A stretch of DNA of 64,000 nucleotides. Origin: Alphaproteobacteria bacterium UBA3773. Its GTDB lineage: Bacteria > Pseudomonadota > Alphaproteobacteria > RF32 > CAG-239. Location of the stretch: NCBI GenBank assembly GCA_002372275.1, contig DFFP01000025.1, forward strand, positions 2,157 through 66,156. Reading direction: 5' to 3'. Made by a program: the position numbers and the translations under genes. Positions 40,286 through 63,975 of this stretch are shown piece by piece (position 1 is the stretch's first letter; every line of letters begins with the position of its first letter). The notes beneath the pieces were generated by a model. It was not told the DNA's origin and did no database searches. It worked only from the letters and a program-made list of their open reading frames with translations.

Positions 40286-40439
40286 AACTAAAACTCCGTT
40301 TTCGGGGTAATTTAGCAAAAAATAAAAAAAATTCAATATCTATATATATCCTTGGATATAAAACAAATGTGAATCGTTATGTTATTGATTTTTTTAGTAA
40401 AATATGTTATAGTTTTTTAAAATAATGGGAGATAGGGTC

Positions 40440-48628: not shown

Positions 48629-49390
48629 TTATTGTAAAGGCGGAATGTTGAGCTGAGCAATGGCTCCCGGACGAATTTTAACGCTTGAATAACGCATGTT
48701 GCCCGTTTCAATTACAAAACGTTGACGCCCTGTGAGCTGCGAAGCTAAATCATAAAAATCGCGACCGTTTAATTCTTGACGTTGGGGATTCATGACGTAT
48801 AAAACACACCCTTGCATTTTTTCGGAAACACCGCAGCGCGCACGTCCCTTCGGGACTTCAGGGTTAATCACAACGCCTTGCAAGCCGTTTTGGACGACTT
48901 GATCGCCACCTTTAAAGAAAAGTGCGCCGATAAAAACACCGACAAACAAGCAAAGAAGCGCAATCCAAAGAACTTTCTTTTTTTCTATGGTGCCGTATAA
49001 ATATGAAGAAGATGAGGCGTAAGCTGTTTGATCGGTTTGATTGTAGGCATAAGGGTCATCCTGCACATAATTTTCTTGAGGGGCATATGTGTTTTGAGCG
49101 TTCATTTGAGGCTCATAGTATTGCGGGACATTTGCGCTCATCTGAATGTTTTGTGTATCAGACGGTTCGGCCGATTCGTAGGTAAAAGGGGTGTTATCAT
49201 ATGAGGCATAGTTTTGAGCGTTTTGATCATTGCCTTGCATATCATATGAGGGATTTTGAGGAGCTTGAGAATAGATGTTGGGCGCGCTTTCGGTGCTGAT
49301 CGGTGTGGCATGTTGTTTCGGACGTTTGATTTTTCTTAAACGTCTGTTGCCAACGATTATTTCATCACCTTGATTATAATTTTCAGGCAT
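48629..49390 (-). CDS. Bitopic membrane protein: Q/N/Y/P-rich N-terminus, one TM segment, about 90-aa C-terminal domain
   Basis: AAGGAG Shine-Dalgarno sequence. Low-complexity N-terminal half (QNPSYDMQGNDQNAQNYASYDN...). TM segment VLWIALLCLFVGVFIGALFF. Last gene of the secretin operon. Confidence 0.6.
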   Translation of the reverse strand: MPENYNQGDEIIVGNRRLRKIKRPKQHATPISTESAPNIYSQAPQNPSYDMQGNDQNAQNYASYDNTPFTYESAEPSDTQNIQMSANVPQYYEPQMNAQNTYAPQENYVQDDPYAYNQTDQTAYASSSSYLYGTIEKKKVLWIALLCLFVGVFIGALFFKGGDQVVQNGLQGVVINPEVPKGRARCGVSEKMQGCVLYVMNPQRQELNGRDFYDLASQLTGRQRFVIETGNMRYSSVKIRPGAIAQLNIPPLQ

Positions 49391-49401
49391 CTTTTTCTCC
49401 T

Positions 49402-50649
49402 TTATAAATTGTTCTGTATCATGGCAGATGTTTTCATTGTTTTAATCAGGCGGGGAACCATGAAAACAACTGTTTCGGATTTGGGTTCTTTTTGACCGAA
49501 TAATTCGCCCGGCAACCCGATAATCATAAAGTTTTCGCCAAGTTCATTTCGAACGGAAAAATGTGTGAGTTGACCATCTGTTTTTTCAAGCGTGATGTCA
49601 GATGAAATATGATTATCGGCTTCAACAGAGGCTTTGGCCAAAACGGAAAGTTCCGATTCGGGGCAGGCCATGACACCGCATTTTCCGACATCAAAACGAG
49701 ATAACCATTGATTGGGGACAATAAATTTGCCCTCTGAAACAACTTGGACATTGGCTTTAGAGCCTAAAAACTTTTGAAGCGTTTTGATGTTGATGTCGTT
49801 TGTTGTGGTTAACACGCGACCGATCACACCTGTTTGTGCCGTTGTGATGCTGCCGAAATGAAATTCATCTAAAAGTGCTTTCCACTCGACATCGCACCCG
49901 TCAAACGGCGTGATTTTGAAAACACTGACATCATAAGCAACAAGTATAGGATTTTCTTCAAAGTATTCAATTAGTCTGGATATTTTGTTTTTTAATTCCA
50001 TATCCGCATTAAATGTGACGGAATATTCTGCCCAGTTGGTTGTGATGTTGGTTAAACCGGCACCGCGCAAAACATCTAAAAGCCCTAAAAGAATCGGGCG
50101 TGTTTTCGGAACATAAACAACGTGATCGGCGCGGCGAGATAACGTCATCAGCTTTTTGTCGGCATCGTATGAGTAAAAAACACCGGCAGCTTCGGTCATC
50201 ATGTTCACAATATCGGTTAGTTCGCCTTTTAAATCTTCGCCGGAAATGGAAGCATAGGGCGCATCCTTGGCTGTTAAGGTGATTCCGGCTTCTTTTGTTA
50301 ATTTGACAAGCGCTTGTTCCACAGGCATGGTTTCAAACGTAAAACCGGTGACTTCAAGTTTCGGTAAATCATCGGAGACCTTAACGGGCATAATCTTAAA
50401 TGCCGTGTTGTTAAAAGGAAGCGTTAAAATCATTTGCTGTGTTTCGCTGTTAATATTACAACGAAGGGGCGTTTCTAAATCAAGCGCATTGGCACCGTCA
50501 GGGGTGCGAATGGACATTTCATGCGGTTTTTCAATTTTAACATTAAGTTTTGAATAACTGTCATCTGCTATTTGAGCTTCACTTGGGGCAGTTGTGTGAC
50601 AAGCTGCTAAAAAACTCAAACATAAGAAACTTTCAAACAAACGTTTCAT
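49402..50649 (-). CDS. Short secretin-family outer-membrane lipoprotein
   Basis: Lipobox FLAAC. N0/secretin-N-like PVEQALVKLTKEAGITLTAKD...AAGVFYSYDADKKLMTLS. Secretin-core-like C-terminal half ending FMIIGLPGELFGQKEPKSETVVFMVPRLI. ATGA start/stop overlap with the upstream gene. Confidence 0.6.
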   Translation of the reverse strand: MKRLFESFLCLSFLAACHTTAPSEAQIADDSYSKLNVKIEKPHEMSIRTPDGANALDLETPLRCNINSETQQMILTLPFNNTAFKIMPVKVSDDLPKLEVTGFTFETMPVEQALVKLTKEAGITLTAKDAPYASISGEDLKGELTDIVNMMTEAAGVFYSYDADKKLMTLSRRADHVVYVPKTRPILLGLLDVLRGAGLTNITTNWAEYSVTFNADMELKNKISRLIEYFEENPILVAYDVSVFKITPFDGCDVEWKALLDEFHFGSITTAQTGVIGRVLTTTNDINIKTLQKFLGSKANVQVVSEGKFIVPNQWLSRFDVGKCGVMACPESELSVLAKASVEADNHISSDITLEKTDGQLTHFSVRNELGENFMIIGLPGELFGQKEPKSETVVFMVPRLIKTMKTSAMIQNNL

Positions 50650-51155
50650 TTATTGTCTCCCGTATCTTCAAAGGTCGGCATATTTTCTGCCTGACCGCTC
50701 TCTTTTAATAGTTTGTTGACGACATCATCGATGTTCATACCGGCACCGGCCGTCGGATCATCTGTTTTGCTGAATTCGCCTAAAGCATCTTTCATTTTAG
50801 AAATTTCGTTCGGATCTTGTTTTAATTTGTCGGGTGATGTGTTGCTTTCAAGTTCTTGCTGGTAAACAGCTAAATTTTGTTGCAATGCATTGATTCCGCC
50901 GGCAATCTTGCGCTCAACATAAGGGTATAAGGCCGGTTTTGCTAAAATATAATTTCCGGTGTCGCAAATTTCTTCTAAAACATCTAATACGTAACCGTAA
51001 AAAGGATATTCTTCTAATGCGATATTTCCCATACGAATACAACGTGCGGCAATACGCGAAATGGTGCGCTCGTAATAATCTCTTAAAAGAAGATAATTAT
51101 CAATGTGCCAGATATCTTCTTTTGTGACGACGGATGAATTTTCATTTTGTTCCAT
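50646..51155 (-). CDS. Hypothetical soluble protein (169 aa) in the secretin operon
   Basis: AGAGGA Shine-Dalgarno sequence. No TM segment or signal peptide. Acidic C-terminus. Translationally coupled to the secretin gene. Confidence 0.55.
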   Translation of the reverse strand: MEQNENSSVVTKEDIWHIDNYLLLRDYYERTISRIAARCIRMGNIALEEYPFYGYVLDVLEEICDTGNYILAKPALYPYVERKIAGGINALQQNLAVYQQELESNTSPDKLKQDPNEISKMKDALGEFSKTDDPTAGAGMNIDDVVNKLLKESGQAENMPTFEDTGDNK

Positions 51156-51215
51156 GTTATTTTCCTCTTACGGTTCTAAAATAAACGAGTATCAATCATT
51201 TGTAAATGACTTTTT

Positions 51216-53279
51216 TTATGCTTTATCCTCTTTGTTGTCGCTGTTAAGCTGATTGACAAGAGAATCGGTGTTTTCCTGATTTTGATCTGCAAACTGTGCA
51301 AGTAGTGCATCTGTATCCATTGCGTCTTCAGGCGCAGATGTGTTGCCATTATAGTTATCAGCAAACTCTGCAAGCAGGGCGTCACTGTCTAAGTTTTCAT
51401 CAGAGACCGGTATATTTTGATCATCAGGGTAAGAAAACTGACTTAACAGAGAGTCGGTATTATCGTTATTTTGATCAGTATATTGCGCAAGAAGAGCGTC
51501 ACTGTCTAACGCTTCATCTGAGGCCGGTAGATTTGGATCATTTTGAGAAGCAAATTGATCTGCAAAGTTCAGATTATCGTTATTTTGATCAGCATATTGT
51601 GCAAGCAGTGCGTCACTGTCTAACACTTCATCTGAGGCTGGTAGATTTGGATCATTTTGAGAAGCAAATTGATCTGCAAAGTCCGGATTATCGTTATTTT
51701 GATCGGCATATTGTGCAAGAAGAGCGTCACTGTCTAACACTTCATCTGAGGCCGGTAGATTTGGATCATTTTGAGAAGCAAATTGATCTAAAAGATTATC
51801 CATATGATCTGTTTCACTTGAAAAAGGCGTATCTGTTTGATCAGGGTTTTGATTGATTTGGGTGTCATAGTTGAATTGCTCGTCCGGTAAAGAGGAGTCT
51901 GATGTGATGTTGTAAGAATCACTTGCAGTATCATAAGAATTGATATCACTTGTCGTATCTTTATAAGGTAATGGATCTTGAGGGGCTACATCAGATGTGT
52001 TTGTCTCTTGGGGTAAAATTGTATCCGATGGCTCTTCAACATATTCCCATTCACTGTCATCATCGGAATCATCATCGGAATCTTCAATATACTCCCAATC
52101 CCAATCTTCATCGTTGTTGGAAGAATTTGAAAGTTGTTCCGTATTTTGTACATTAGAAGAGAATTCTGAATTTGTGGGCTGATTTTTTTCTTCAATCGGT
52201 GGTAAATCGTTGAGATCAGATTTTAAGGTTTCTGTTTGTGAATGGTCATTTAAGGACACAGGCGTGTCTGTAAAATCATCAAGCGAAACAGGTGTTTGGT
52301 CTATTTCAGGTACTGTGTTTTTTTCAGAAGACGATTTAAGCGTTGTGAAAATCTTTTTTGTTAAATTAAAAATGCTGTTTTTTGTTTCAGAACCTGTTTC
52401 TGAAACACTCGAATTTTCTTTTGTTTTTTCTTTTAAATCGGTCGATTTTTGATTATCGGAATGATTTGTTGCCGATATGGAAGAATCTTGTTTATTGTTA
52501 TCCTTATTCTTTTCTTTCTTGTCTTTTTTATCTTTTTTCTTATTTTTTTCGTTCTTTTTATTTTCGAGCGCGCTTTCTTCTTCGATTTCTTTTTCAACTT
52601 TTTCTTCAATCGGATCTGAAGCAACTTGCTTGTCTTGTATGATATCTTTTTCTTGTTCATCTTCCGGTTTCGGCGTTGGTTTGTTTTCCGGCTCATCTAA
52701 AACAGGGTTTATGTTTTTTTCAGCTGCAACGGTTTGCACGGCGACAGCTTGGGCACTTAATGCTTCTTTTAAGGTGTTTGCAATATTTTCTTGAGAACGC
52801 ACCATCATTTCAAAGAGCATTTCCATATCTTTAGCATGTTGAAGCTCGTTTTGTTTTAAAATACTTAAAATATCGCTGCTGATGGCATTACTGCTTGCAC
52901 TCACTTCAGGATTTTGAACATTTTGTTTGATATTGGATTCTTTTTCTTTGGTTTTCACAGATGATTGAAAGTTATGATCAACTGATGGTTTGGCCAAATC
53001 ATAGTTTTTGAAAGATGATTGAGTGTGTTTTTGATTTTCTTTTTCTTCAAGGTTTGCAATATGGTCAATTAAAATTGATCCGCCGGGCAGTGTGCTCAGT
53101 AAAATGCGTATGTTAGATGGAAGCTCTAATAATGAATCATCGAACTCTTTTTTTCTTTTATCGTTAAAAATATGAATTTGATGGAAAATATTAAGGTATC
53201 TTTGAGCAACTAAAATGGGATCTTCGTTGCCTTCATGGGTCCCCGTAAATTCTGCATCCTGGTTTAATTCATCTGACAT
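51216..53279 (-). CDS. Large, highly acidic low-complexity protein with C-terminal 38-aa tandem repeats
   Basis: 687 aa. About 100-aa ordered N-terminal domain (ILVAQRYLNIFHQIHIFNDKRKKEF...), Lys-rich patch (NKKKDKKDKKEKNK), Asp/Glu/Asn/Ser-rich middle, and repeats DQFASQNDPNLPASDEVLDSDALLAQYADQNNDN. Confidence 0.7.
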   Translation of the reverse strand: MSDELNQDAEFTGTHEGNEDPILVAQRYLNIFHQIHIFNDKRKKEFDDSLLELPSNIRILLSTLPGGSILIDHIANLEEKENQKHTQSSFKNYDLAKPSVDHNFQSSVKTKEKESNIKQNVQNPEVSASSNAISSDILSILKQNELQHAKDMEMLFEMMVRSQENIANTLKEALSAQAVAVQTVAAEKNINPVLDEPENKPTPKPEDEQEKDIIQDKQVASDPIEEKVEKEIEEESALENKKNEKNKKKDKKDKKEKNKDNNKQDSSISATNHSDNQKSTDLKEKTKENSSVSETGSETKNSIFNLTKKIFTTLKSSSEKNTVPEIDQTPVSLDDFTDTPVSLNDHSQTETLKSDLNDLPPIEEKNQPTNSEFSSNVQNTEQLSNSSNNDEDWDWEYIEDSDDDSDDDSEWEYVEEPSDTILPQETNTSDVAPQDPLPYKDTTSDINSYDTASDSYNITSDSSLPDEQFNYDTQINQNPDQTDTPFSSETDHMDNLLDQFASQNDPNLPASDEVLDSDALLAQYADQNNDNPDFADQFASQNDPNLPASDEVLDSDALLAQYADQNNDNLNFADQFASQNDPNLPASDEALDSDALLAQYTDQNNDNTDSLLSQFSYPDDQNIPVSDENLDSDALLAEFADNYNGNTSAPEDAMDTDALLAQFADQNQENTDSLVNQLNSDNKEDKA
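51453..51788 (-). repeat. In-frame 114-bp tandem repeat (three near-identical copies, with degenerate copies continuing to about 51219)
   Basis: The DNA repeats with a 114-nt period (gcgtcactgtctaac...gatcattttgagaagcaaattgatctgcaaag...). It encodes three 36-38-aa units plus two degenerate DSDALLA(Q/E)(Y/F)AD units. Confidence 0.85.
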
Positions 53280-53397: not shown

Positions 53398-54375
53398 TTA
53401 TAAGTCAATGGCAACTACTTTGTGTAAGTTTGTCAGATTGCTGTTGTCTATTTCAATTTTTTCATCCGGATTGAAACGCAAGCCGTAAAGCTGTCCTTTC
53501 TCATCTTCTCGGATACAAATAAACATTGCCTCTTCTTCTGAAATGTAATACAACGCAATGTCTCCGACGCTGACGGATTCTTGCGGATCAATAAATAACA
53601 CAGCACGATTGGAAAGAATATTGCCAAGTCTTCTGGTACATAAATTGACGGCATAGGCATCACGCTTGTTCATTAAACGGAAAGGACAAACAACTTCTTT
53701 GGCTTCTTCATCATCCATATCAATCAAAATATTTCCGTTGCTTGAAGGAGTTCCGAATACTTTCATTAACGGCATTTCACCCGTATAAACACCATACATG
53801 GAAACATGGCTGCCTTTCGGGGTGGCAAGAGATTTGTATTTAGCGTCTGTTTTTTCCATAATCTCATTGAGCTCGCCGGCGTCTTTTAATTTTTGAATTT
53901 CTGATTTTAAGGCATCAGGAGCTAAAGAAAGGGCTTTAGCGATATTTTTAAATTCTTTGTCGGATACTTCACGTTGGCCCATCTCAATACGGTGATAAAC
54001 AGATAATGTCATATCGGCGTTTTCGGCAACTTCAATAAGCGTTAAATCACGAATTGTTCTTAAACGGCGCAAAGCTGCACCTAAAACTTTTAAGCCGGCA
54101 TCTGTGTTGATTTTGTTACGTCTTTCTTGTTCACGACGCCAACTTTGAACAACTTCTTCTTTGGAGTTTTGTTCGTTAACATATAAATCTTGCAAAGAGC
54201 AATTTGTAAGCTCGGCAACGGAAATCAGTTGTTCCTGGCTTAAACGGCGATAACCCTTTTCAATTTTGGAAACAGCAGATAAACTGACACCTAAATGGTC
54301 GGCCAAAGCTTGCATTGAAACGCCTTTTCTCTTTCTTTGGAGCCTAATCTGATTTGGAAAAATAATCTCTTCCAT
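53398..54375 (-). CDS. Dual-HTH XRE-family transcriptional regulator with degenerate S24/LexA-like C-terminal domain
   Basis: HTH1: IRLQRKRKGVSMQALADHLGVSLSAVSKIEKG. HTH2: LRRLRTIRDLTLIEVAENADMTLSVYHRIEMG. The C-terminal beta-rich domain has GDIALYY where S24 proteins have GDIV, but no GDSM Ser or obvious Lys. Confidence 0.75.
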   Translation of the reverse strand: MEEIIFPNQIRLQRKRKGVSMQALADHLGVSLSAVSKIEKGYRRLSQEQLISVAELTNCSLQDLYVNEQNSKEEVVQSWRREQERRNKINTDAGLKVLGAALRRLRTIRDLTLIEVAENADMTLSVYHRIEMGQREVSDKEFKNIAKALSLAPDALKSEIQKLKDAGELNEIMEKTDAKYKSLATPKGSHVSMYGVYTGEMPLMKVFGTPSSNGNILIDMDDEEAKEVVCPFRLMNKRDAYAVNLCTRRLGNILSNRAVLFIDPQESVSVGDIALYYISEEEAMFICIREDEKGQLYGLRFNPDEKIEIDNSNLTNLHKVVAIDL

Positions 54376-54479: not shown

Positions 54480-57400
54480 TTAGCTTCCAGAATCAGGATT
54501 TTCGTTTGTTCCTTCCCAGCGGCTTCTGTATTCTTCACGCTGTTGTTCTTCTTGTTCGCGACGTTGTTCTTCTTGTGCACGTTCTTCTTGATCAGAAATC
54601 GCAAAATTTAAAAATTCTTCTAAAGTTGTTTTTTCGTGCTTGTTTCTCTGATTCTTACGCTCATTTTCTTGTTTGGCAAAGGCAACGCGATCTTCATCCG
54701 TTAAACCCCACATGGCAGAATTTGGATCAATGGAGGGGGCAAATCGGCCAAGCTGACCGCCAAAGTTCATCAGGTTTTGAACACTGCTGTTACGCACAAA
54801 TCGCTCATCGAAATTGTAGTGTGAAACAGCCTCTTTCCCCTCTTGTTTGGTCGTGGTACGCCGGACAACACCATTGTCGGTAATTTGTGTAATATTACCG
54901 TTTTTATCGGCCGTTCGCATGTGTATGAGCATTTGTCCGTTGAGAATTTCGCTGGTAACTACGGTTTGAGAACCATCGTTATTTATTTGTGTGATAATGG
55001 TTTTGCCGTCTTGATGAATGGTTTCGCGCGATTGAAATGAATTGGCAATATCCATATGCCTGTCTTTCATCACGGTGTGCATAATAGCCTCGTTCACCAG
55101 TTCTTGGGATAATCCGGTGTTTTGTCTTAAGTTTTCAATTAATGACATATTCAGTCTTCCGTCACGCTGAACAATATACTTATCGGCATCCGTTTTGAAA
55201 GCAAAATCGCGATGGACAATGTTGCCGTTTTGGTCTGTGACATTGCGAACTGCAAAAAATTGATCTTTTTGAACTGTATCTTGGAATTTGGGCGCACCTG
55301 ACAAATCTGTTTGATGATGTGCCCCGTAAGTGTTTGCAAAACTTTCAAGCTTGCTTCCTTTAGACGCAAGGGAGGCAAGGATTTTTGCTCTGAGAGATGC
55401 TGTGGATTTAGTCATCTCATATCCGCCAGCTGCGTTTTGCTTGATGTTCAGTGTTACTTGGCGTCCTCTTAAATTATGATGTGTGACATTAGCGCTGATG
55501 AGATTATGATTTTGATCAAACACTGTTTCGTTAAAGCCCCCGGAATGATTACGACGCGAAATCACCGTGTTTCCATCGGCATCGGTTGTTTTTTTAGCAA
55601 TCACTTCGCCTTTAGCATTGGTCATGGTGATGTTACCGTTTTCATCTTTATTGATGGTTCGTATAAGTTCACCGTTTTCGTTGAAAATTTGCTGTGTTTT
55701 TCCGTCGGCAGAGGTCGTTTGACTTTGACCGTTTTCAAGTTTCCCATTCAATAAATCTTCAACTTTTGCGGTGTTTGATAGGGTATTTGATAAACGTGCC
55801 TGATTAACTAAGCCTTGCGCGGCCCCTTTGATTTGTTCTTTAATACTGTGTTGTTGTTCGGAATATGAAAATGAGCCGTCTTTGTTGAGCATGGCAAAGC
55901 GCGTTGTTTTATGTGGGTTTAATTGATCAAAAAGTTTGTTTCCTTTGCCTTGACCGACATCTAATTTGTACCCGATAATATTGCCTTGATCATCTTTAAT
56001 GGCCTCACCGTTCTTTTTGACATTTTCCATCTTTTTTGCTATTCGGCGATTGCGGATAGGTGTGCCGATATAATAGCCACCTGCTGCCCAGCCGAATTTG
56101 CCTAGCTCTTTGCCTATGCCTAAGACGCCGCCGGAGCGTTTACCCGTTTCTTCATCTTTACCGCCTAAAGCTACTCTTTCAGCCGCTTGGGCAAAGAAAC
56201 CGCCTGTTTTACGGCCAATATCTAAATCCGGCGCTTTGGCAAATTCACCGGCTAATTTTGTTCCGTTATCTAAAAAGACCCAGCCGAGTAAACATATGGT
56301 CATTAGTTTAATAAAATTTACACCCCAAAAAGCAAGGCCCGTGAGCGGACTGACGATTTTTTTATAATCCGTAGCGTACGCATCAAGGCCTGAAAGGAGA
56401 TCTTGCGTGGCTTGCAAAATGATGTATAGAATAATACTTAAGAAAACAAATTGGAACATGGCGTTCATAAAGTAATCCCATATTTTTTTGAGGTATGAGG
56501 CTTGTTTTGGAAAGGCCCATGCACCAATGGCTGCCGGCATTAAGGCAGAGGCAATGGCCATGTTTAAGACGCAATCAATCAAGCACCATGGAAACGCCAA
56601 GACTAAAATCAGGCCGCCAATCATCAGAAGAAGACCGGTTAAGACATAGCCGGGGTTGGGGAGCATACCAAAAATAATTTTTTCGATGTACACGCCGATA
56701 CACACAACTTCTCTGCCGAATGCGACAATTTTCCAGACACCATCTTGCATGGTCTTGATGGCACATAAGATGTTTTGCCCCATGGAAACGGGCAGTGCGC
56801 CTTGTGATTTGTCGGTTAATTCTTTGTCATATCCCATTAAACCTTCCATATAAGAACCGGAACATTTGGTTTCAGTGGAAATGGTTTGAGCATAGGCCAT
56901 TCCTGTGTTGAAAACAGGGGCAAGAGTTAGTCTTAAAATATGAGCATAACTGACACGTAAAATCAAGACAACAAGCAAAACACGAAAGGCCTGAACAAGC
57001 CATTCTTGAATCATCTTTGAGGGTTTAACGGCTTGAAGTGCAGCAATATTTTTCAAAACAAATAAACCGGTCCAGAGCGCAAAGAAAATGACAACGACGA
57101 CCGCAATGCCGCCGGCTAATGTTTGATATGCTTTTTGTGCCAGACGACTTGCCGTGTTAAATAAAACCTTAAATATAGGACAAAAATAGCATTTGTCGCT
57201 ATCGGGCATATATTGGTGCCACTCACAGTCATTATTTGTTGTTTGAGCCATGCCTTCGCCTGCCGGAGTTTCGGTAATACCTGCCGCGTATGCAACACTT
57301 TTGCTTTGCTGAGCCGCGTCGCTTAAGGTTTCACGCGGTTCTCCCTCTTTTTTATCAAGACATTCTTCTGTTGAATAATCTTCAGATCCTCCGCCGCAAA

Positions 57401-58190
57401 GACTTTGAATATCTTCACATAAAGGATCAATTATGGATGATTTAATTGCTTGGTAACCTTTTGAAAAATCGCCGCTGTGAATTTCAAAATGAAGGTGCGG
57501 ACCATAAGGTTTACAAGGACCGTCCGGATAAGGATAGTCGCAAAGGGTGTTTGTGGCTGTGTGGTAGTTTGAACCGCCGACATGTCCGATCGGATCGCCT
57601 TTTTTGACATGACCTCCTGTTTTAATGTAATCTTTTAAGTGAAGATAAACTGTGACATATTTATTATCACAAGAGCCGGATGAACCTTTGGCCGAACACT
57701 TACATGCTTTGGTGTGTTCGATCATGATGGCACGTCCACCACCGCCTAAGGGTTTTGCCCAGACGATGTTGCCGTCAGCCGCGGCTGTGACAAGTGTGCC
57801 GGCATCGGCAGCATAGTCTGTGCCGAGGTGATTACGCGGTTTCGGGTTGCCACCGGCACCATTTGCACGATAACAGTTTGTTTCGGCAACTCTGTTAATT
57901 TTTGAAACAGGCATGGTATCTAGGCACGAACATGACTGCGCATTTCTGTTCATAATACACGCCGTGTCGACATCGTTTCGTTTGCCACTCGGACATGTTT
58001 TTTCAAGCTTGCCGCCGGAAGTTGAAAGCGTACATGTCCCGTTTGAACAATCTTTGCCGCCGCAAGAATCACCTGATGAAGAACGAGATGAAAAGTCAAA
58101 AAGCTGTGCACAGGCCAAATGGCTGTTTTCCACCATTAAGAACATGAAAAACAAAGAAAAAAACAAGTAATGTGATTTAATTTTTTTCAT
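54480..58190 (-). CDS. M23 peptidase / VirB6(TrbL)-like polytopic membrane protein fusion with long YD-like C-terminal extension
   Basis: Signal peptide. M23 motifs NHLGTD (HxxxD) and GPHLHFEIH (HxH) at aa ~105-255. VirB6-like TM core at aa ~320-640 (DKCYFCPIFKVLFNT, LMPAAIGAWAFPKQASYLKKIW). Hydrophilic tail of about 590 aa. Confidence 0.7.
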   Translation of the reverse strand: MKKIKSHYLFFSLFFMFLMVENSHLACAQLFDFSSRSSSGDSCGGKDCSNGTCTLSTSGGKLEKTCPSGKRNDVDTACIMNRNAQSCSCLDTMPVSKINRVAETNCYRANGAGGNPKPRNHLGTDYAADAGTLVTAAADGNIVWAKPLGGGGRAIMIEHTKACKCSAKGSSGSCDNKYVTVYLHLKDYIKTGGHVKKGDPIGHVGGSNYHTATNTLCDYPYPDGPCKPYGPHLHFEIHSGDFSKGYQAIKSSIIDPLCEDIQSLCGGGSEDYSTEECLDKKEGEPRETLSDAAQQSKSVAYAAGITETPAGEGMAQTTNNDCEWHQYMPDSDKCYFCPIFKVLFNTASRLAQKAYQTLAGGIAVVVVIFFALWTGLFVLKNIAALQAVKPSKMIQEWLVQAFRVLLVVLILRVSYAHILRLTLAPVFNTGMAYAQTISTETKCSGSYMEGLMGYDKELTDKSQGALPVSMGQNILCAIKTMQDGVWKIVAFGREVVCIGVYIEKIIFGMLPNPGYVLTGLLLMIGGLILVLAFPWCLIDCVLNMAIASALMPAAIGAWAFPKQASYLKKIWDYFMNAMFQFVFLSIILYIILQATQDLLSGLDAYATDYKKIVSPLTGLAFWGVNFIKLMTICLLGWVFLDNGTKLAGEFAKAPDLDIGRKTGGFFAQAAERVALGGKDEETGKRSGGVLGIGKELGKFGWAAGGYYIGTPIRNRRIAKKMENVKKNGEAIKDDQGNIIGYKLDVGQGKGNKLFDQLNPHKTTRFAMLNKDGSFSYSEQQHSIKEQIKGAAQGLVNQARLSNTLSNTAKVEDLLNGKLENGQSQTTSADGKTQQIFNENGELIRTINKDENGNITMTNAKGEVIAKKTTDADGNTVISRRNHSGGFNETVFDQNHNLISANVTHHNLRGRQVTLNIKQNAAGGYEMTKSTASLRAKILASLASKGSKLESFANTYGAHHQTDLSGAPKFQDTVQKDQFFAVRNVTDQNGNIVHRDFAFKTDADKYIVQRDGRLNMSLIENLRQNTGLSQELVNEAIMHTVMKDRHMDIANSFQSRETIHQDGKTIITQINNDGSQTVVTSEILNGQMLIHMRTADKNGNITQITDNGVVRRTTTKQEGKEAVSHYNFDERFVRNSSVQNLMNFGGQLGRFAPSIDPNSAMWGLTDEDRVAFAKQENERKNQRNKHEKTTLEEFLNFAISDQEERAQEEQRREQEEQQREEYRSRWEGTNENPDSGS

Positions 58191-58194: not shown

Positions 58195-60288
58195 TTATTC
58201 CTGACTTTCCTCTTTTTCTTTTTTCTCTTCCCAATCTGCCCATTCTTTTTGTCTTAAGTATTCTTCATTTGCTTTGGGTTTGTTGTTCTGCATGGCATCG
58301 CCCGTGCCTTCTAAAATTTTTCCGGGAACTTTCCATACATTTCCGACACCTTTAAGGAATTTATCACCGTATTTTTGAGTGTATGCCTCTCCATAATCTA
58401 GGACATTTTTGACGACAAATTTGGTGCGCCTATAACCATTTCTAACAGATTCACGAAGATCTACACCATTTTGAAGAGCTTTACTTGAAGCATTAATTGC
58501 TCCATTAACAATTATATCCGGTGTTTTTAAGGCAGCATTAGCAATTTTTAAGTGGGTTGTGGAAGCGACCGACGCAACTTTCGATGCAGTTCTGTAAAAA
58601 CTTGTTGCTATGTTACGGCGAATGCGTTTTTGTGCCCAATTAACCCATCCGTCTTCAGATTTTTCAGCTAATTTTCCATTATTGATGCGATCAACGTTTC
58701 TGTTTGCCCAATTAGCAATTTTTTGAGTTCTTCCTTCCAACATATTACTGAGTTTTTCTGAACTTTTATGGCGCCATTTGGCTAATTTATTTTCTGAAAA
58801 CGCTTGTTTTATTTCTTCTGCTTTATTGTTAATTTTTTGATTTAGATCGTTTAGAGGACCTTTTTTAAGCAATTTTCTATCAAGCGAATCCTTGAGAATT
58901 TCAAGTTTTTCATTTGCCTCTTGTTGATTTTGAGCATGCCACTCGGCAGCTTTTTGAGGGATATCCAGCACGCCGGAATTGTTAATGGCTTGCCTCAAAG
59001 CTGACGGATTGGCGTTTCTTTGTGCTTCATTTTGACGAATCTGGGCATTGATATTGTCTATATTGTTTTGGTAATTTTCTTTTTTTGTTTGTGCCTGTTG
59101 GGCAACAGTTTCGTTGGCAGCATTTTTTTGTTCGGCAACGTGTGCTTGAAAAGCTTCTCTTCCCTCGCCGGAGAGTATGGCTGAACCAAGGGTGCTTTTA
59201 AGCCCGAATTTAATATTATTACCTCTTTGCTTAAAATATTTTTCTACGGAAGCGCCACCGCTTCTAAGATTTGCTAATGCCTTCTTGCTTGTTTCTTTCG
59301 GATTTCGAATGGCAACGCCTGCCTGATGTATACCGCTTTTGATTTGATTATGATATTTCCCTTGTATGAGTTTTCCGGTACCTGATACAACGTGTCCGCC
59401 TAAATTGTTTACAACATCACGTGTATAGGCGGCCACAGGTGCCACGGCTTTTTGTTTGACAAAGTCAACGCCTTGGGTTGAGAGCATATGCATTGGTGAG
59501 GCTTTTGAGCCTTTACCAAACATTTGATCGGGGAAAAATTTGTCAACATAATCCGGAATGGTGGATCCAATCATTTTCATGCCATAAATGAGGACAACAA
59601 CAATAAGTAAAAATGTACCGGAAGTAAGTGAAAATGTTTCAGAAACAAATGTCGTTTTATTGTGTGTTAAGGCATCCATAATAGGTGGAAGAGCACCTAA
59701 AGCTTCAATCAGCATATTTAATGCATAGGCGGTTGTGATGGAAAGAAAAACAAGAATGCCGGCACTTTTTAAGAAAACACTGATACAAACCATGAGTTTG
59801 TCTTTGGTCCATGAAAACGGCCATAAAGCAATTGCAATCGGCAGAACGATAATTGAAAAACCCAATTTAAATGAAACATCTACAATATAAAACGTGACAC
59901 TTAACACGAGCATAAATCCGAAACAATAAACAATTGCACCGCAAAGCCATATCGGAATGTTTGCCCAATCAAAAAGATGGATACCTAAAACTGTAGCCTC
60001 CCACGGATCACCATAAACAGCATGACACATTAAAGTATCTCCTAAGACCTGGATACTTATCAGGTTATCCGAAATATTTTGAACGCTGTTTGAAAAATTA
60101 TTTAACAAGCTTATGGGGATAATACTGCCTTTTAAGGAAACATCTTGGAATGTAGGCTTAGCTTTTGCTTTAAGAACTGCACATTTACTTTGTTTTTCAG
60201 ACCTCGAAAGAGCATAACCCTCAGAAGTCGGCAAAACAAAAAAGGTTGTTAAAATAAGTAAAAGAAATATGCATATCTTTTTAACCAC
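58195..60288 (-). CDS. VirB6(TrbL)-like protein, C-terminal half of the TM core plus long basic/coiled extension
   Basis: GTG start preceded by GGAGGA. TLMCHAV...FYIVDVSFKLGFSIIVLPIAIALWPFSWTKDKL aligns with the second half of the 458-aa paralogue. About 430-aa hydrophilic tail. Confidence 0.65.
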   Translation of the reverse strand: MVKKICIFLLLILTTFFVLPTSEGYALSRSEKQSKCAVLKAKAKPTFQDVSLKGSIIPISLLNNFSNSVQNISDNLISIQVLGDTLMCHAVYGDPWEATVLGIHLFDWANIPIWLCGAIVYCFGFMLVLSVTFYIVDVSFKLGFSIIVLPIAIALWPFSWTKDKLMVCISVFLKSAGILVFLSITTAYALNMLIEALGALPPIMDALTHNKTTFVSETFSLTSGTFLLIVVVLIYGMKMIGSTIPDYVDKFFPDQMFGKGSKASPMHMLSTQGVDFVKQKAVAPVAAYTRDVVNNLGGHVVSGTGKLIQGKYHNQIKSGIHQAGVAIRNPKETSKKALANLRSGGASVEKYFKQRGNNIKFGLKSTLGSAILSGEGREAFQAHVAEQKNAANETVAQQAQTKKENYQNNIDNINAQIRQNEAQRNANPSALRQAINNSGVLDIPQKAAEWHAQNQQEANEKLEILKDSLDRKLLKKGPLNDLNQKINNKAEEIKQAFSENKLAKWRHKSSEKLSNMLEGRTQKIANWANRNVDRINNGKLAEKSEDGWVNWAQKRIRRNIATSFYRTASKVASVASTTHLKIANAALKTPDIIVNGAINASSKALQNGVDLRESVRNGYRRTKFVVKNVLDYGEAYTQKYGDKFLKGVGNVWKVPGKILEGTGDAMQNNKPKANEEYLRQKEWADWEEKKEKEESQE

Positions 60289-61042
60289 CGCTTCCTCCGT
60301 TGATATATGTTTGTACTATATTGTTTCCGAGTGCTGAAACGGAATCGGCTACATCAATACCCATTTCTAGAATAGGAACGAGTGTGTAATGTAAAATAGT
60401 GGACATGCCGGAATTAATAATCACAAGAGCCAATACAACCTTAAAGCATTGAACAAAAAATTCTTGCAAAAGTTTCATCGGTTCAACGGAAGTAAACGCT
60501 GTGACATTTTTGAAAACAAAAAAAGCCAGCCAGATCATCATACACACAAGTGCAACCGCATTGGCTGCCTGCCGGGATATATCATAGGCATGGGAAGCTG
60601 CTGTGATAAAGGCAGAGATAAGAGTTTTAATAATAATGCAACCGTAACAGGTGGAATATTTTATAAAGAAATTTGACGCAATACACTGTTTGCCTCTTCG
60701 GTGTGAACCTTCTATAAGACCAAGGTACCCGTTGTAGGTGTCACCTGAAATACCGCCATCTTTTGCATGTGAACAATCACCCGAAGGTTTTGATGACGAG
60801 CAATAAAAAACTTCTTTGTGCTTTTGTTGAATACACAGTGTCCACATGTTACATTCCCACTCATGGCATTTATAACATTTGTTGTCTTTTAGATTACACA
60901 TGTTCATATCGCCATCATCCTTCATACCGCATACAACTTCGACTTTTCCGCTTGAGGGATCGGGCATTAAACGCTGAGATAAAGCAGGTTTTGAACTTAA
61001 GATTAACAAGAAGAGAAGAATATGAAAGAAGATATGTTTCAT
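60281..61042 (-). CDS. VirB6(TrbL)-like protein, N-terminal half only (Cys-rich periplasmic region plus first TM segments)
   Basis: Signal peptide and Cys-rich region. STCYGCIIIKTLISA and FVFKNVTAFTSVEPMKLLQEFFVQCFKVVLALVII align with the first half of the paralogues. Ends GGSGG and overlaps the next ORF by 8 nt. Confidence 0.6.
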   Translation of the reverse strand: MKHIFFHILLFLLILSSKPALSQRLMPDPSSGKVEVVCGMKDDGDMNMCNLKDNKCYKCHEWECNMWTLCIQQKHKEVFYCSSSKPSGDCSHAKDGGISGDTYNGYLGLIEGSHRRGKQCIASNFFIKYSTCYGCIIIKTLISAFITAASHAYDISRQAANAVALVCMMIWLAFFVFKNVTAFTSVEPMKLLQEFFVQCFKVVLALVIINSGMSTILHYTLVPILEMGIDVADSVSALGNNIVQTYINGGSGG

Positions 61043-61043: not shown

Positions 61044-62357
61044 TTATTCTCTCCCTGCCAGTTTGTTCATGCGCTCTTGCATTTCTTGTTTCATATGTTG
61101 AGCTTTTTCATGAATCTCTTTTAACTTTTGATTTTTATCAATAACGGATGTAAATACTTTGCTTGCGCCTGCAGTAAAGGAAGAAAGAACTTTTTTAGCA
61201 GCAGAAGCTGCCGCTTTTGCAATTTTCTTTTGGAAATCTGTTCCGGCACCGCCGCCGACAAGTGTGCCCGCTAAGGCAACCGAAATTTCAATACTCTTTA
61301 AAACCAAAAATCCGATTAAAATGAGTGATAATGGCATAATCCCGGCATCAGTAAAGTTTTCGGTTATAAAAAGATCGTAGTTGTTAAGTATAATCATTTG
61401 CATTGCGGCCAGCGACATAGAAACCATAATGGCTATAAATGCCATAATAGCCGCCGAATTTAAAACTGATACAAAACCTGTTTTCGTCCATTTTCGGCTG
61501 AATTTGAACGGATAAGCCATAATAAAACAAGGAAGAAGTATTAACATAATTGTCATGCGGAAAATACTATCGATGATATAAAAAACAAAATCAAGTTTTA
61601 CAATAGCAAAAATGGCAAATAAAATAATCCCGCAAACAACAGAGGATAAAGAGGCAATACCTAAAAGTTTTGTTGCAAGTTGAAAACCGATGTTCATACG
61701 ATCGTTAACCGCACAGGTCAAACACTGCATCATAAAAGAAGGACCTTGCGGAAAATGATTGGCATCGACAACTTCCAAAGCAGGAGGTTCGCATACAATC
61801 GGTTGATCATAAATGAGGCAAAAGCCGTCTTCTTCGTTTCCGAGATATATACCGTCGCTATTACCGCCAAGTTGCATTGAATTTAAGACAGCCCCTCCAT
61901 ATTCTAAAAAAGCGTAGTATATCGGAAAAACGAGTTTATTTAAGACAAACATTAAAAATCCGGTCTGTGAGGCCAATATACCGCAGACAAAGCACGTGAA
62001 AAACATACGCGTTATTTCAGTCCAGACTTCAGAAATGTTTTCAGGAACAACCGATGAAACGTGTTTCAAAAGTCTGATGGAAAGCCAGACAGCAAAGGCC
62101 ATCATCATAAACGGCATGGCACTTTTGGTCACTTTCGGGTAGGCGGCCATGGCTGCTTTTCCCATAACTCTATAAAACGCACTTAAGATGGATGCTTGCC
62201 AACAAGTACGTTGCTGCTCATCCAAATCACTTTCTTCGCCGGCAACAGGCTCATCTTTAATAAGCCCCTCGTCGTTACAAGCTGTTAACATCATAACGGA
62301 ACAGACAATCATTAAGATTGTTCTTAAAAATTTGAATATGTTTTTTTTCTGTTCCAT
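61044..62357 (-). CDS. VirB6(TrbL)-like polytopic membrane lipoprotein
   Basis: Lipobox MLTAC. TM core with MMQCLTCAV and LLPCFIMAYPFKFSRKWTKTGF. Gly/Ala-rich then coiled C-terminus. Confidence 0.65.
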   Translation of the reverse strand: MEQKKNIFKFLRTILMIVCSVMMLTACNDEGLIKDEPVAGEESDLDEQQRTCWQASILSAFYRVMGKAAMAAYPKVTKSAMPFMMMAFAVWLSIRLLKHVSSVVPENISEVWTEITRMFFTCFVCGILASQTGFLMFVLNKLVFPIYYAFLEYGGAVLNSMQLGGNSDGIYLGNEEDGFCLIYDQPIVCEPPALEVVDANHFPQGPSFMMQCLTCAVNDRMNIGFQLATKLLGIASLSSVVCGIILFAIFAIVKLDFVFYIIDSIFRMTIMLILLPCFIMAYPFKFSRKWTKTGFVSVLNSAAIMAFIAIMVSMSLAAMQMIILNNYDLFITENFTDAGIMPLSLILIGFLVLKSIEISVALAGTLVGGGAGTDFQKKIAKAAASAAKKVLSSFTAGASKVFTSVIDKNQKLKEIHEKAQHMKQEMQERMNKLAGRE

Positions 62358-63782: not shown

Positions 63783-63975
63783 GTTCTTTATCCTTGTTTT
63801 GGTCTGCTCTTAAAAAAGGAATACCAAGTACCTTTACAGCTGCCGCGATGGCAATACACAAAAAGATAAAGCTTGTCCATATAAAAGCGGTACTTGATAA
63901 AATGTCAAAAACCTTAAACCGAATTAAAAGTAAAACGGCTCCGAAAAGTAAAAATGTTATCAATACCGATTTCAT
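63772..63975 (-). CDS. Small two-TM membrane protein at the head of the VirB6-like array
   Basis: 67 aa with two hydrophobic segments. AGGAAAAAG Shine-Dalgarno sequence. Its 3' end overlaps the next gene by 11 nt. No VirB2 or VirB3 motif recognised. Confidence 0.45.
   Translation of the reverse strand: MKSVLITFLLFGAVLLLIRFKVFDILSSTAFIWTSFIFLCIAIAAAVKVLGIPFLRADQNKDKEHEK

What the first reader, a model, noticed from the sequence alone, without database searches (positions are those of the whole stretch)
54480..58190. M23 (LytM-type) peptidase fused in one ORF to a VirB6-like channel subunit and a YD-like tail
This is one uninterrupted 1236-codon ORF. It begins with a signal peptide and a Cys-rich stretch (SCGGKDCSNGTCTLS). 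Residues ~105-255 (nt 57426-57878) carry both M23 metal-ligand motifs in canonical order: H121-LGT-D125 (HxxxD) and H232-L-H234 in GPHLHFEIH (HxH). Residues ~320-640 (nt ~56271-57227) form the VirB6-like TM core. Residues ~650-1236 are hydrophilic with degenerate YD-like repeats (DDQGNIIGYKLD, NENGELIRTINKDENGNITMTNAKGEVIAKKTTDADGNTVISRRN, TDQNGNIVHRDF, TADKNGNITQITDNG) and a Glu/Gln/Arg tail. Classical T4SSs breach peptidoglycan with a separate VirB1 lytic transglycosylase, and rvh-type operons lack an obvious virB1. An endopeptidase attached covalently to the channel subunit would be a different solution. I do not know of this domain fusion being described.
Basis: partly seen in the sequence, partly recalled or inferred. 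Interest (0 to 1): 0.8.

Follow-up and report, generated by a model that had tools for sequence, protein, structure and literature searches.

The report
Cell-wall peptidase fused to VirB6
One 1236-residue protein of an uncultured gut alphaproteobacterium joins an intact M23 cell-wall endopeptidase to a VirB6-type membrane subunit of a type IV secretion system, so the machine probably carries its own wall-cutting tool instead of using a separate VirB1 enzyme.

Summary
ORF 54480..58190 (-) is uninterrupted. It encodes a signal peptide, a Cys-rich segment, an M23 peptidase domain (Pfam 63.8 bits, cutoff 28.7), a flexible linker, a 5-TM VirB6-like core and a 590-residue hydrophilic tail.

- **M23 domain:** all five catalytic/ligand residues are invariant in 51 homologues.
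- **VirB6-like core:** an AlphaFold model matches only R388 TrwI/VirB6 (Foldseek prob 1.0, TM 0.62). Several homologues pass both Pfam thresholds on one chain.
- **Not an assembly artefact:** the fusion occurs in 64 of 73 complete orthologues from about 80 species of uncultured gut and rumen Alphaproteobacteria.
- **Position:** it is always the last of 4-5 tandem VirB6 paralogues in a conserved cluster of roughly 15-18 kb.
- **T4SS context:** in one sub-lineage the cluster abuts an rvh-like virB8-B7?-virB8-virB9-virB10-virB11 islet.
- **Modular N-terminus:** relatives carry M23+VgrG3-like lysozyme, M23+SLT, GDSL+M23+SLT, lysozyme only, or nothing.

I conclude that it acts as a built-in VirB1 equivalent. 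This is inferred, not assayed. The "YD-like" tail is a beta-hairpin repeat array and fails the RHS profile. I found no description of such a fusion. I rate it a new variant of a known kind.

The parts
54480..58190 (-). Whole ORF: 1236-aa hydrolase-VirB6 fusion protein (stop codon included)
   Evidence: The identical protein is carried by three contigs read in the assembly look-up. 104 homologous clusters.
58107..58190 (-). Residues 1-28: Sec-type signal peptide (KKIK, hydrophobic core, ACA|QL)
   Evidence: Read from the translation. The A-x-A-Q position is nearly invariant (A28) in the 51-sequence alignment. Cleavage is inferred.
57879..58106 (-). Residues 29-104: conserved Cys-rich periplasmic segment (C..C.N.TC.L...CPSG.R.DVD..C.MN.NA...SC.DTMPV), function unknown
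   Evidence: Consensus and conserved Cys. 40% mean identity. 5.4% Cys across the pre-TM region 29-350.
57423..57878 (-). Residues 105-256: M23 (LytM-type) Zn metallopeptidase domain; H121/D125/H234 metal ligands, H184/H232 catalytic
   Evidence: PF01551 63.8 bits. PDB sequence hits 3slu and 6muk. Foldseek hits to M23 enzymes, prob 1.0. The five residues are invariant. Best-conserved region, 53% mean identity.
57228..57422 (-). Residues 257-321: linker. Its start is Cys-rich (C258, C265, C277 invariant). About 50 residues are low-confidence and poorly conserved, consistent with a flexible tether.
   Evidence: pLDDT <50 for model residues 182-234, which are protein residues 267-319. 29% mean identity.
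56241..57227 (-). Residues 322-650: VirB6/TrbL-like polytopic core. It has a C334-x-F-C337-P-x-F motif, five hydrophobic segments (353-385, 393-424, 512-558, 573-600, 621-640) and a Cys-containing periplasmic loop 420-512.
   Evidence: Foldseek match to TrwI/VirB6 8rt9_F and 7o3v. PF04610 is sub-threshold here but above threshold in homologues. Hydropathy and Cys distribution.
54483..56240 (-). Residues 651-1236: family-specific hydrophilic tail. It is an array of beta-hairpin repeats with helical inserts and ends in a Glu/Gln/Arg-rich helix. It is nearly Cys-free.
   Evidence: AlphaFold pLDDT 81. Only local Foldseek similarity to OspA-type single-layer sheets and Rhs shells, TM <=0.25. RHS_repeat 9.1 bits. 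The tail HMM hits only this orthologue group.
58195..60288 (-). VirB6-like paralogue, C-terminal half (P2 loop, TM3-5, tail), 697 aa; 4-nt gap to the fusion gene
   Evidence: blastp to fusion residues 466-842; junction sequence.
60281..61042 (-). VirB6-like paralogue, N-terminal half (signal, Cys-rich, CxxC, TM1-2), 253 aa; overlaps the next gene by 8 nt
   Evidence: blastp to fusion residues 334-438. The split is conserved in 58 loci; it is a single ORF in L028, L037 and L062.
61044..62357 (-). VirB6-like paralogue, 437 aa
   Evidence: blastp to the other paralogues; cluster 0.
62406..63782 (-). VirB6-like paralogue, 458 aa, with a CILCPVF motif
   Evidence: blastp E 1e-26 to fusion residues 316-672. 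The related P0104 passes PF04610 at 35.5 bits.
63772..63975 (-). 67-aa two-TM protein that opens the paralogue array; overlaps the next start codon
   Evidence: A counterpart (63 aa) holds the same position in L082. No family hit.
53398..54375 (-). Double HTH_3 (XRE-type) regulator, 325 aa, immediately downstream
   Evidence: Pfam HTH_3 80.5 bits. Found at this position in 72 loci.
48629..53279 (-). Four further co-conserved genes of unknown function: an acidic 687-aa repeat protein, a 169-aa protein, a 415-aa lipoprotein and a 253-aa TM protein
   Evidence: Synteny in 51-70 loci. 41-64% mean column identity for the 169-, 415- and 253-aa proteins. No Pfam, NCBIfam or significant PDB-sequence hit.

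Best explanation
The gene encodes the last of four to five tandem VirB6-type inner-membrane (stalk/channel) subunits of a chromosomal, rvh-like type IV secretion system in an uncultured gut alphaproteobacterium. Its N-terminus is a built-in peptidoglycan hydrolase.

**Proposed mechanism.**
1. The Sec signal peptide exports the N-terminal 320 residues to the periplasm. There the Cys-rich parts form disulfides.
2. The VirB6 core inserts with five TM segments in the classical VirB6 topology: N-terminus out, large periplasmic loop, C-terminus in.
3. The active M23 Zn-endopeptidase most likely cuts peptide cross-links, as MepM and ShyA do. A flexible tether of about 50 residues holds it at the periplasmic face of the subunit.
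4. It can therefore open the sacculus only where the stalk has to cross it. This does the job of soluble VirB1 while confining lysis to the assembly site.
5. If the subunit oligomerises like the TrwI pentamer, several hydrolase heads would ring the stalk.

**What is shown.** Domain identities, intact catalytic residues, conservation of the fusion, its fixed position in the gene array, the swap with SLT and lysozyme modules in relatives, and adjacency to virB8-11 in one sub-lineage.

**What is inferred.** Enzyme activity and bond specificity, topology, oligomeric state, action in cis during assembly, and the role of the 590-residue tail.
For: **M23 domain.**
- PF01551 63.8 bits.
- NCBIfam's best, though weak, matches are the DD-endopeptidases ShyC, MepM and ShyA.
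- PDB and Foldseek matches are to M23 enzymes.
- H121, D125, H184, H232 and H234 are invariant in 51 homologues.
- M23 is the most conserved region, 53% mean identity against 48% for the core.

**VirB6 core.**
- The only non-M23 structural matches are TrwI/VirB6 chains, prob 1.0, TM up to 0.64 normalised to the target.
- PF04610 is above threshold in homologues that also carry PF01551.
- Four tandem paralogous ORFs lie upstream; two of them are the halves of one split copy.

**Periplasmic placement.**
- The pre-TM part has 5.4% Cys and the 420-512 loop 3.4%, against 0.08% in the tail.
- The K/R-rich loops fall on the predicted cytoplasmic side.

**T4SS context.**
- In L085 and L082, VirB8 - 62 aa - VirB8 - VirB9/CagX - a 1140-aa protein - VirB10 - VirB11 lie convergent with the cluster.
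- VirB11 follows the cluster in 5 of 37 loci with enough flank.
- The gene order equals Rickettsia rvh islet C, and the tandem VirB6 genes equal islet A (PMC2653234).

**Functional coupling.**
- M23 sits on the last paralogue in 64 of 64 cases and never on any other paralogue.
- The same slot holds M23+VgrG3-like lysozyme, M23+SLT, GDSL+M23+SLT or lysozyme alone in relatives.
- L087 shows the same upstream gene layout for the SLT-bearing form.

**Literature.** Reviews state that Gram-negative T4SSs breach the wall with soluble VirB1, whose activity must be restrained (PMC12857230, PMC12624023).
Against: - There is no biochemical or genetic evidence of any kind.
- The window protein itself is below the Pfam TrbL threshold (16.9 against 25.9 bits). 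A profile of the core found nothing in PDB by sequence.
- The 64-kb window holds no VirB4, VirB8-11 or VirD4 gene. The flanks read with Pfam annotation are housekeeping genes. A complete T4SS in this genome is therefore assumed from relatives.
- Nine of 73 complete orthologues have lost the hydrolase module, so it is not indispensable.
- The model's pTM is modest (0.55). I could not inspect coordinates to check the zinc-site geometry or the orientation of the domains.
- The hydrophobic stretch 512-558 could be two TM segments, which would flip the tail to the periplasm.
- Whether these genomes also keep a separate VirB1-type transglycosylase was not determined.
Confidence: 0.72

Rival explanations
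1. The M23 module is a non-catalytic LytM-type factor. It would either anchor the VirB6 subunit to peptidoglycan or activate an amidase (as EnvC and NlpD do), rather than cutting the wall itself.
For: The LytM domains of EnvC are among the structural matches (4bh5_A TM 0.69, 8c0j_B). The VirB9 of a relative carries a weak SPOR hit, a domain that binds amidase-processed glycan. From my own recollection, not checked here, the LytM domain of Gram-positive PrgK is not the main lytic activity.
Against: All three metal ligands and both catalytic histidines are invariant across 51 homologues down to 26% identity. From established knowledge of that family, degenerate LytM factors have lost these residues. 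The closest sequence matches are active enzymes (MepM, ShyA, NMB0315).
Confidence: 0.08
2. The protein is chiefly a delivery or display device for its variable C-terminal tail. The tail would be surface-exposed or released, as in the extended VirB6 proteins of Anaplasma or TraG of F plasmids. The M23 module would only help that domain pass the wall, or it would serve another purpose.
For: - The tail is family-specific and confidently folded (pLDDT 81).
- It is poorly conserved (20-28%, and 10% at the C-terminal end) and almost Cys-free.
- Some homologues add true RHS repeats and long extra C-terminal regions.
- The C-terminal extensions of Anaplasma VirB6-3 and VirB6-4 are reported to be surface-exposed (PMC7648143).
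Against: The positive-inside pattern and a count of five hydrophobic segments put the tail in the cytoplasm. No toxin or effector domain was detected in it. This reading does not conflict with wall cutting by M23; it adds a second function.
Confidence: 0.15
3. The cluster is not part of a T4SS. It would be a separate envelope system built from VirB6-like membrane proteins, for example a wall-remodelling or contact-dependent system of its own.
For: No VirB3 or VirB4 gene precedes the VirB6 array, unlike rvh islet A. Six or seven co-conserved genes have no recognisable family. In most genomes the cluster is not next to other virB genes.
Against: It lies convergent with virB8-virB11 in one sub-lineage. 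The structural match to the T4SS stalk subunit TrwI is unique. Scattered vir islets are the rule in Rickettsiales (PMC2653234). The VirB1-type SLT domain sits in the same slot in relatives.
Confidence: 0.08
4. The long ORF is an assembly or sequencing artefact that joins a separate M23 gene to a VirB6 gene.
For: None, apart from the fact that the window comes from a metagenome assembly.
Against: The identical protein is carried by three contigs read in the assembly look-up. The same architecture appears in 104 clusters and about 80 species, with 26-78% identity and no break at the junction.
Confidence: 0.01

Closest known systems
VirB6/TrbL family, 'extended VirB6' subtype (Rickettsiales RvhB6a-e; Anaplasma VirB6-1 to -4)
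   Same: Polytopic core with a large periplasmic loop, several tandem paralogues in one operon, long hydrophilic extensions flanking the TrbL/VirB6 domain, and vir genes scattered in chromosomal islets (PMC2653234, PMC7648143).
   Different: In the papers I read, the described extended VirB6 proteins carry repeat or unstructured extensions, not an enzyme. Here the N-terminal extension is an intact M23 peptidase, with SLT or lysozyme modules in relatives. No virB3-virB4 precedes the array. The host is a gut or rumen alphaproteobacterium known only from metagenomes. Phylogenetic relatedness to rvh was not tested.
VirB1 (soluble lytic transglycosylase of Gram-negative T4SSs)
   Same: The proposed job is the same: local opening of the sacculus for T4SS assembly. 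Relatives of this protein carry the same SLT domain in the same slot.
   Different: VirB1 is a separate soluble protein that cuts glycan strands. This one is an M23 endopeptidase, expected to cut peptide bonds, and it is covalently tied to an inner-membrane subunit. No SLT domain is present in the window protein.
Membrane-anchored multidomain hydrolases of Gram-positive T4SSs (PrgK of pCF10: LytM+SLT+CHAP; TraG of pIP501; CwlT)
   Same: The wall hydrolase is tethered to the membrane at the secretion site. Endopeptidase and glycosidase modules are combined in a modular way, and a LytM/M23 domain is associated with a T4SS (PMC12857230).
   Different: Those enzymes are anchored by a single TM helix and are separate from the VirB6 homologue (PrgH). 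They belong to monoderm systems. Here the anchor is the VirB6 subunit itself, in a diderm.
Periplasmic M23 DD-endopeptidases (MepM, ShyA/ShyC, NMB0315/Mpg, Csd3)
   Same: Fold, HxxxD and HxH motifs, and the catalytic histidines. These are the best sequence and structure matches.
   Different: Those are free-standing housekeeping or cell-shape enzymes with LysM or other regulatory domains. This domain has two Cys-rich insertions and a different, Cys-rich N-terminal segment, and it is fused to a T4SS subunit.

Membership tests
Peptidase family M23 (LytM-type metalloendopeptidase) | Profile match above the curated threshold (PF01551) | tested here: met
   63.8 bits against a cutoff of 28.7, residues 120-239.
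Peptidase family M23 (LytM-type metalloendopeptidase) | HxxxD and HxH zinc-ligand motifs plus the catalytic His, in canonical order | tested here: met
   H121-LGT-D125, H184 (YLHL) and H232-L-H234; invariant in 51 homologues.
Peptidase family M23 (LytM-type metalloendopeptidase) | M23 beta-sheet fold superposable on solved enzymes | tested here: met
   Foldseek prob 1.0 to 3slu, 6muk (rmsd 2.8 A over 142 columns), 2gu1 and 9gy1 (TM 0.73 normalised to the target). The geometry of the ligand side chains could not be inspected.
Peptidase family M23 (LytM-type metalloendopeptidase) | Zinc-dependent peptidoglycan endopeptidase activity | not testable with these tools
   Needs an enzyme assay on sacculi or muropeptides.
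VirB6/TrbL T4SS subunit | Profile match above the curated threshold (PF04610) | tested here: inconclusive
   The window protein scores 16.9 bits against a cutoff of 25.9. Same-architecture homologues pass: P0049 28.5, P0062 28.4, P0074 26.5, P0246 32.7, P0282 42.1.
VirB6/TrbL T4SS subunit | Fold like a solved VirB6 (R388 TrwI) | tested here: met
   8rt9_F E 8.9e-4, prob 1.0, TM 0.62 normalised to the target, 325 columns. 7o3v chains F, G and J match similarly. The next unrelated hit has E ~1.
VirB6/TrbL T4SS subunit | Polytopic topology with periplasmic N-terminus, about 5 TM segments and a large periplasmic loop | tested here: met
   Five hydrophobic segments. Cys-rich N-terminal part and 420-512 loop. 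K/R-rich alternate loops. This is a prediction only.
VirB6/TrbL T4SS subunit | Genomic association with other T4SS genes | tested here: inconclusive
   None in this 64-kb window. In relatives the cluster is convergent with virB8-virB8-virB9-virB10-virB11, and VirB11 is adjacent in 5 of 37 loci.
Rickettsiales-type rvh T4SS | Tandem multiplied VirB6 genes, duplicated VirB8 flanking a small ORF, vir genes scattered in islets | tested here: met
   compared with PMC2653234. Organisational resemblance only.
Rickettsiales-type rvh T4SS | Phylogenetic grouping of VirB4, VirB6 and VirB10 with the rvh/lvh clade | not tested
VirB1-like lytic transglycosylase | SLT (goose-lysozyme-like) domain with a catalytic Glu | tested here: not met
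   No PF01464 hit in the window protein. SLT is present in relatives P0316, P0320, P0324 and P0330. The protein works like VirB1 but is not a member.
Rhs/YD-repeat proteins | RHS_repeat/YD profile matches | tested here: not met
   9.1 bits against a cutoff of 22 in the window tail. The cutoff is met only in extra C-terminal regions of some homologues (P0074 24.7; L053 31.2).
Rhs/YD-repeat proteins | Closed beta-shell (cocoon) fold | tested here: not met
   Foldseek hits to Rhs, Tc and teneurin shells have TM <=0.10 and rmsd of about 30 A. This is local hairpin similarity only. The best hits are single-layer OspA sheets.

The most novel reading that the evidence does not exclude
This gene would be the commonest form of a large, undescribed class of 'self-drilling' VirB6 stalk subunits. 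In a whole order-level lineage of gut and rumen Alphaproteobacteria, the T4SS would dispense with a soluble VirB1. Instead it would mount interchangeable wall-hydrolase cassettes (M23, SLT, VgrG3-type lysozyme, GDSL esterase) directly on one dedicated VirB6 paralogue. Lysis would then be stoichiometric and confined to the stalk. The family-specific beta-hairpin tail would be a second functional module, either a cytoplasmic docking platform or an exported domain. Together with the split VirB6 paralogue, the giant beta-flower VirB10 and six or seven unknown co-conserved genes, this would define a distinct T4SS subtype in organisms known only from metagenomes.
Probability: 0.35. Interest if true: 0.78.

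Novelty: new variant of a known kind. Interest (0 to 1): 0.62.

Why it matters
How secretion machines cross the cell wall without killing the cell is still poorly understood. [quoted passage not shown]

A hydrolase covalently attached to the stalk subunit is a simple answer: dose and place are fixed by the machine itself. The natural series found here (none, M23, M23+lysozyme, M23+SLT, GDSL+M23+SLT on one scaffold) amounts to a ready-made experiment on which bond has to be cut.

The finding also gives a first functional handle on one member of the puzzling multiplied 'extended VirB6' proteins. It also points to an rvh-like T4SS in abundant but uncultured gut and rumen Alphaproteobacteria, whose substrates and targets are unknown.

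In the public records I saw, these proteins carry only generic names: 'M23 family metallopeptidase', 'peptidoglycan DD-metalloendopeptidase family protein' or 'type IV secretion system protein, partial'.

Tried and rejected
- A profile of the TM core against PDB sequences gave no hit, even at E 10. The link to VirB6 came from structure, not sequence.
- tblastn of the core against 72,556 plasmids found no match. The family is not on known plasmids.
- The four conserved downstream genes and the 67-aa gene gave nothing usable in Pfam or NCBIfam. Profiles of the 415-, 253- and 169-aa proteins gave nothing usable against PDB sequences.
- The promoter and terminator scan of 53200-64000 gave counts no different from shuffles. 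I draw nothing from it.
- The first representative search, with the M23+core alignment, failed because the profile was too long. I repeated it with the core only.
- YD/Rhs membership of the tail is rejected.
- The frameshift or assembly-artefact explanation is rejected.
- An antibacterial T4SS effector role for M23 is rejected. The domain has an N-terminal Sec signal and is upstream of a polytopic membrane core, not a cytoplasmic substrate with a C-terminal signal. This is inference from the architecture.
- Cluster-member names added nothing: all but one are unnamed metagenomic proteins.

Full report
**1. The observation**

The ORF at 54480..58190 on the minus strand is 1236 codons long, starts at ATG and has no internal stop. 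The stop codon of the upstream gene lies 4 nt before the ATG, so the gene sits in a tightly packed operon.

**2. Domain anatomy**

| Residues | Feature | Evidence |
|---|---|---|
| 1-28 | Sec-type signal peptide | |
| 29-104 | Conserved Cys-rich segment | |
| 105-256 | M23 peptidase domain | see below |
| 257-321 | Linker | |
| 322-650 | VirB6-like core | see below |
| 651-1236 | Hydrophilic tail | see section 3 |

*M23 domain.*
- Pfam PF01551 scores 63.8 bits against a cutoff of 28.7.
- phmmer finds the Neisseria M23 enzymes 3slu and 6muk.
- The weak NCBIfam hits are to the DD-endopeptidases ShyC, MepM and ShyA.
- In a 51-sequence alignment spanning 26-78% identity, H121, D125, H184, H232 and H234 are invariant. 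These are the full set of metal ligands and catalytic histidines.
- This domain is the best-conserved part of the protein: 53% mean identity, against 48% for the core, 29% for the linker and 20-28% for the tail.

*Linker.* About 50 of its residues have pLDDT below 50 and low conservation, which is consistent with a flexible tether.

*Core.*
- It has five hydrophobic segments and an invariant C-x-F-C-P-x-F motif at its start.
- In this protein PF04610 (TrbL/VirB6) reaches only 16.9 bits against a cutoff of 25.9. A sequence profile of the core found nothing in PDB.
- An AlphaFold model of residues 86-665 (pLDDT 77.5) gave two classes of Foldseek hits and no others. One class is M23 enzymes. The other is the TrwI/VirB6 chains of the R388 T4SS stalk (8rt9_F: E 8.9e-4, prob 1.0, TM 0.62 over 325 columns). 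The next unrelated hit is at E ~1.
- Homologues with the same architecture pass both Pfam thresholds on one chain: P0049, P0062, P0074 and P0246.

*Topology.* Cys content is 5.4% in the pre-TM part, 3.4% in the 420-512 loop and 0.08% in the tail across the family. Together with the K/R-rich alternate loops, this fits the classical VirB6 topology: periplasmic N-terminus, large periplasmic loop and cytoplasmic C-terminus (topology as cited in PMC7648143).

**3. The tail**

Residues 660-1236 fold confidently (pLDDT 81) into runs of beta-hairpins with helical inserts and a terminal long helix. Foldseek finds only local similarity:
- engineered OspA single-layer sheets (E ~2e-6, TM <=0.25);
- at lower rank, Rhs, Tc-toxin and teneurin shells (TM <=0.10, rmsd ~30 A).

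RHS_repeat scores 9.1 bits against a cutoff of 22 in the window protein. It reaches threshold only in extra C-terminal regions of some homologues. 'YD-like' is therefore a fair description of the hairpin repeat style, but the tail is not a member of the Rhs family.

An HMM of the distal tail hits only this orthologue group. The tail is a family-specific domain of unknown function.

**4. Not an artefact, and where it occurs**

- The identical protein is carried by three contigs read in the assembly look-up.
- 104 protein clusters share the architecture.
- A scan of one genome per GTDB species returned 80 loci. Most records are titled uncultured Alphaproteobacteria or proteobacteria from human gut, rumen, rabbit, reindeer and similar samples; a few bins carry other names.
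- The window's flanks are ordinary chromosomal genes (MutS, MnmE, Rho, GltX, SucCD, Suf), so the locus is chromosomal.

**5. Gene neighbourhood**

Clustering all ORFs of the loci shows a conserved same-strand array:
- a 146-aa lipoprotein;
- a 280-aa protein;
- a ~65-aa two-TM protein;
- two or three VirB6-like paralogues;
- a VirB6 paralogue that in 58 loci, including this window, is split into an N-terminal half (60281..61042) and a C-terminal half (58195..60288);
- the hydrolase-VirB6 gene;
- a double-HTH regulator (72 loci);
- an acidic repeat protein;
- three highly conserved proteins of 171, 426 and 231 aa with no detectable family.

In one sub-lineage the array is convergent with VirB8 - 62 aa - VirB8 - VirB9/CagX - a 1140-aa protein - VirB10 (1441 aa, beta-flower repeats plus TrbI) - VirB11. 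VirB11 is the next gene in 5 of 37 loci with enough flank. That order mirrors Rickettsia rvh islet C, and the tandem VirB6 genes mirror islet A (PMC2653234). In this window no other vir gene is present.

**6. The key comparative result**

*GTDB loci.* M23 is carried by the last paralogue in 64 of 73 complete cases and by no other paralogue. Seven of those 64 carry M23 followed by a VgrG3-like C-terminal domain (PF21277; from my knowledge, a lysozyme/chitosanase-type wall hydrolase), confirmed by Pfam for L079 and L080. Nine have lost the module; L070 still keeps the post-M23 linker.

*Wider family.* A search of 1.84 billion representatives with the core profile found 1514 relatives, 461 of them at E <= 1e-30. 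Among 232 family proteins the N-terminal modules were:

| N-terminal module | Proteins |
|---|---|
| M23 | 134 |
| M23 + VgrG3-like | 9 |
| M23 + SLT | 6 |
| GDSL-like + M23 + SLT | 1 |
| VgrG3-like only | 3 |
| none | 64 |
| unassigned | 14 |

Pfam confirmed these assignments for P0101, P0246, P0316, P0320 and P0324 (SLT 64.2 bits). The SLT-bearing P0320 sits in the same upstream gene layout.

The slot occupied by M23 in the window protein is therefore a cassette position for peptidoglycan hydrolases, and it includes the very domain that defines VirB1.

**7. Mechanism proposed**

1. The signal peptide exports the N-terminal part, and disulfides form.
2. The VirB6 core inserts in the inner membrane.
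3. The tethered, catalytically intact M23 endopeptidase cleaves peptide cross-links in the producer's own sacculus, exactly where the stalk must pass.
4. This replaces or complements soluble VirB1.

Reviews describe VirB1 as a soluble enzyme whose activity must be restrained, and they report membrane-anchored multidomain hydrolases (LytM, SLT, CHAP) only for Gram-positive systems (PMC12857230, PMC12624023). Activity, bond specificity, oligomeric state and tail function are all inferred. Loss of the module in nine lineages shows that it is dispensable in some backgrounds.

**8. Rivals**

- *Degenerate LytM factor* (anchor or amidase activator). Unlikely, given the invariant active-site residues.
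- *Tail-centred role* (surface exposure or release, as for Anaplasma VirB6-3 and VirB6-4; PMC7648143). This cannot be excluded and could coexist with wall cutting.
- *Non-T4SS system.* Made unlikely by the TrwI match, the adjacency to virB8-11 and the SLT cassettes.
- *Assembly artefact.* Excluded.

**9. Novelty**

Eight full-text searches found no description of a VirB6-hydrolase fusion. Public names for these proteins are generic. Both domains and the concept of T4SS-associated wall hydrolases are known. What is new is the covalent, modular mounting on a dedicated VirB6 paralogue in a diderm, across a large uncultured lineage. I rate it a new variant of a known kind, with interest of about 0.6.

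Noticed in passing
window 60281..61042 (-) and 58195..60288 (-): One VirB6-like paralogue is split into two overlapping genes (8-nt overlap). The first encodes the N-terminal half (signal, Cys-rich part, CxxC, TM1-2). The second encodes the C-terminal half (periplasmic loop, TM3-5, tail). The split is conserved in 58 loci, while the gene is a single ORF in L028, L037 and L062. It therefore looks like a genuine two-piece VirB6, not a frameshift.
   Followed up: partly
L085 1..15308 (relative; also L082, L086): An rvh-like islet reads VirB8(252) - 62 aa - VirB8(241) - VirB9/CagX(546, weak SPOR hit) - 1140-aa unknown - VirB10 - VirB11. The VirB10 is giant (~1400-1500 aa), with beta-flower (PF21784/PF21785) and DUF3659 repeats ahead of TrbI. 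More than 230 such clusters exist.
   Followed up: partly
window 48629..51155 (-): Three genes (169 aa; 415-aa lipoprotein; 253 aa with one TM and a conserved C-terminal domain) are co-conserved with the VirB6 array in 51-55 loci. Their mean column identity is 41-64%. They have no Pfam, NCBIfam or significant PDB-sequence match. They are candidates for unknown components of the system.
   Followed up: partly
window 51216..53279 (-): A 687-aa, highly acidic protein with 3.8 copies of a 114-nt (38-aa) tandem repeat (motif FASQNDPNLPASDEVLDSDALLAQYADQNNDN...). It holds a conserved position in 70 loci but is very variable in sequence and length.
   Followed up: no
window 53398..54375 (-): A 325-aa protein with two XRE-type HTH_3 domains lies directly downstream of the fusion gene in 72 loci. 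It is a possible regulator of the cluster. It has weak similarity to Wolbachia Wmk-type double-HTH proteins in NCBIfam.
   Followed up: no
window 48301..48600 (+): A 99-aa lipoprotein with a weak precomputed MliC (lysozyme inhibitor) hit lies at the edge of the cluster. I did not find it conserved at this position in other loci.
   Followed up: no
window 40425..41213 (+) and 47196..48011 (+): Two secreted proteins flank the RND efflux genes. They share only a ~40-residue C-terminal motif (KRIYTV.EA...; 44% identity over 41 aa, E 1e-8). It may be a common sorting or anchoring signal.
   Followed up: no
window 54483..56240 (-), and homologues: The tail of the family is almost free of cysteine: 24 Cys in 29,342 residues, and 30 of 51 sequences have none. 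The periplasmic N-terminal part has 5.4% Cys. This could reflect an exported or unfolded-transport state, or merely composition.
   Followed up: partly
window 63772..63975 (-): A 67-aa two-TM ORF overlaps the start of the first VirB6 paralogue. A counterpart is present in L082. It has no family match. A VirB3-like or pilin-like role is possible but unsupported.
   Followed up: partly
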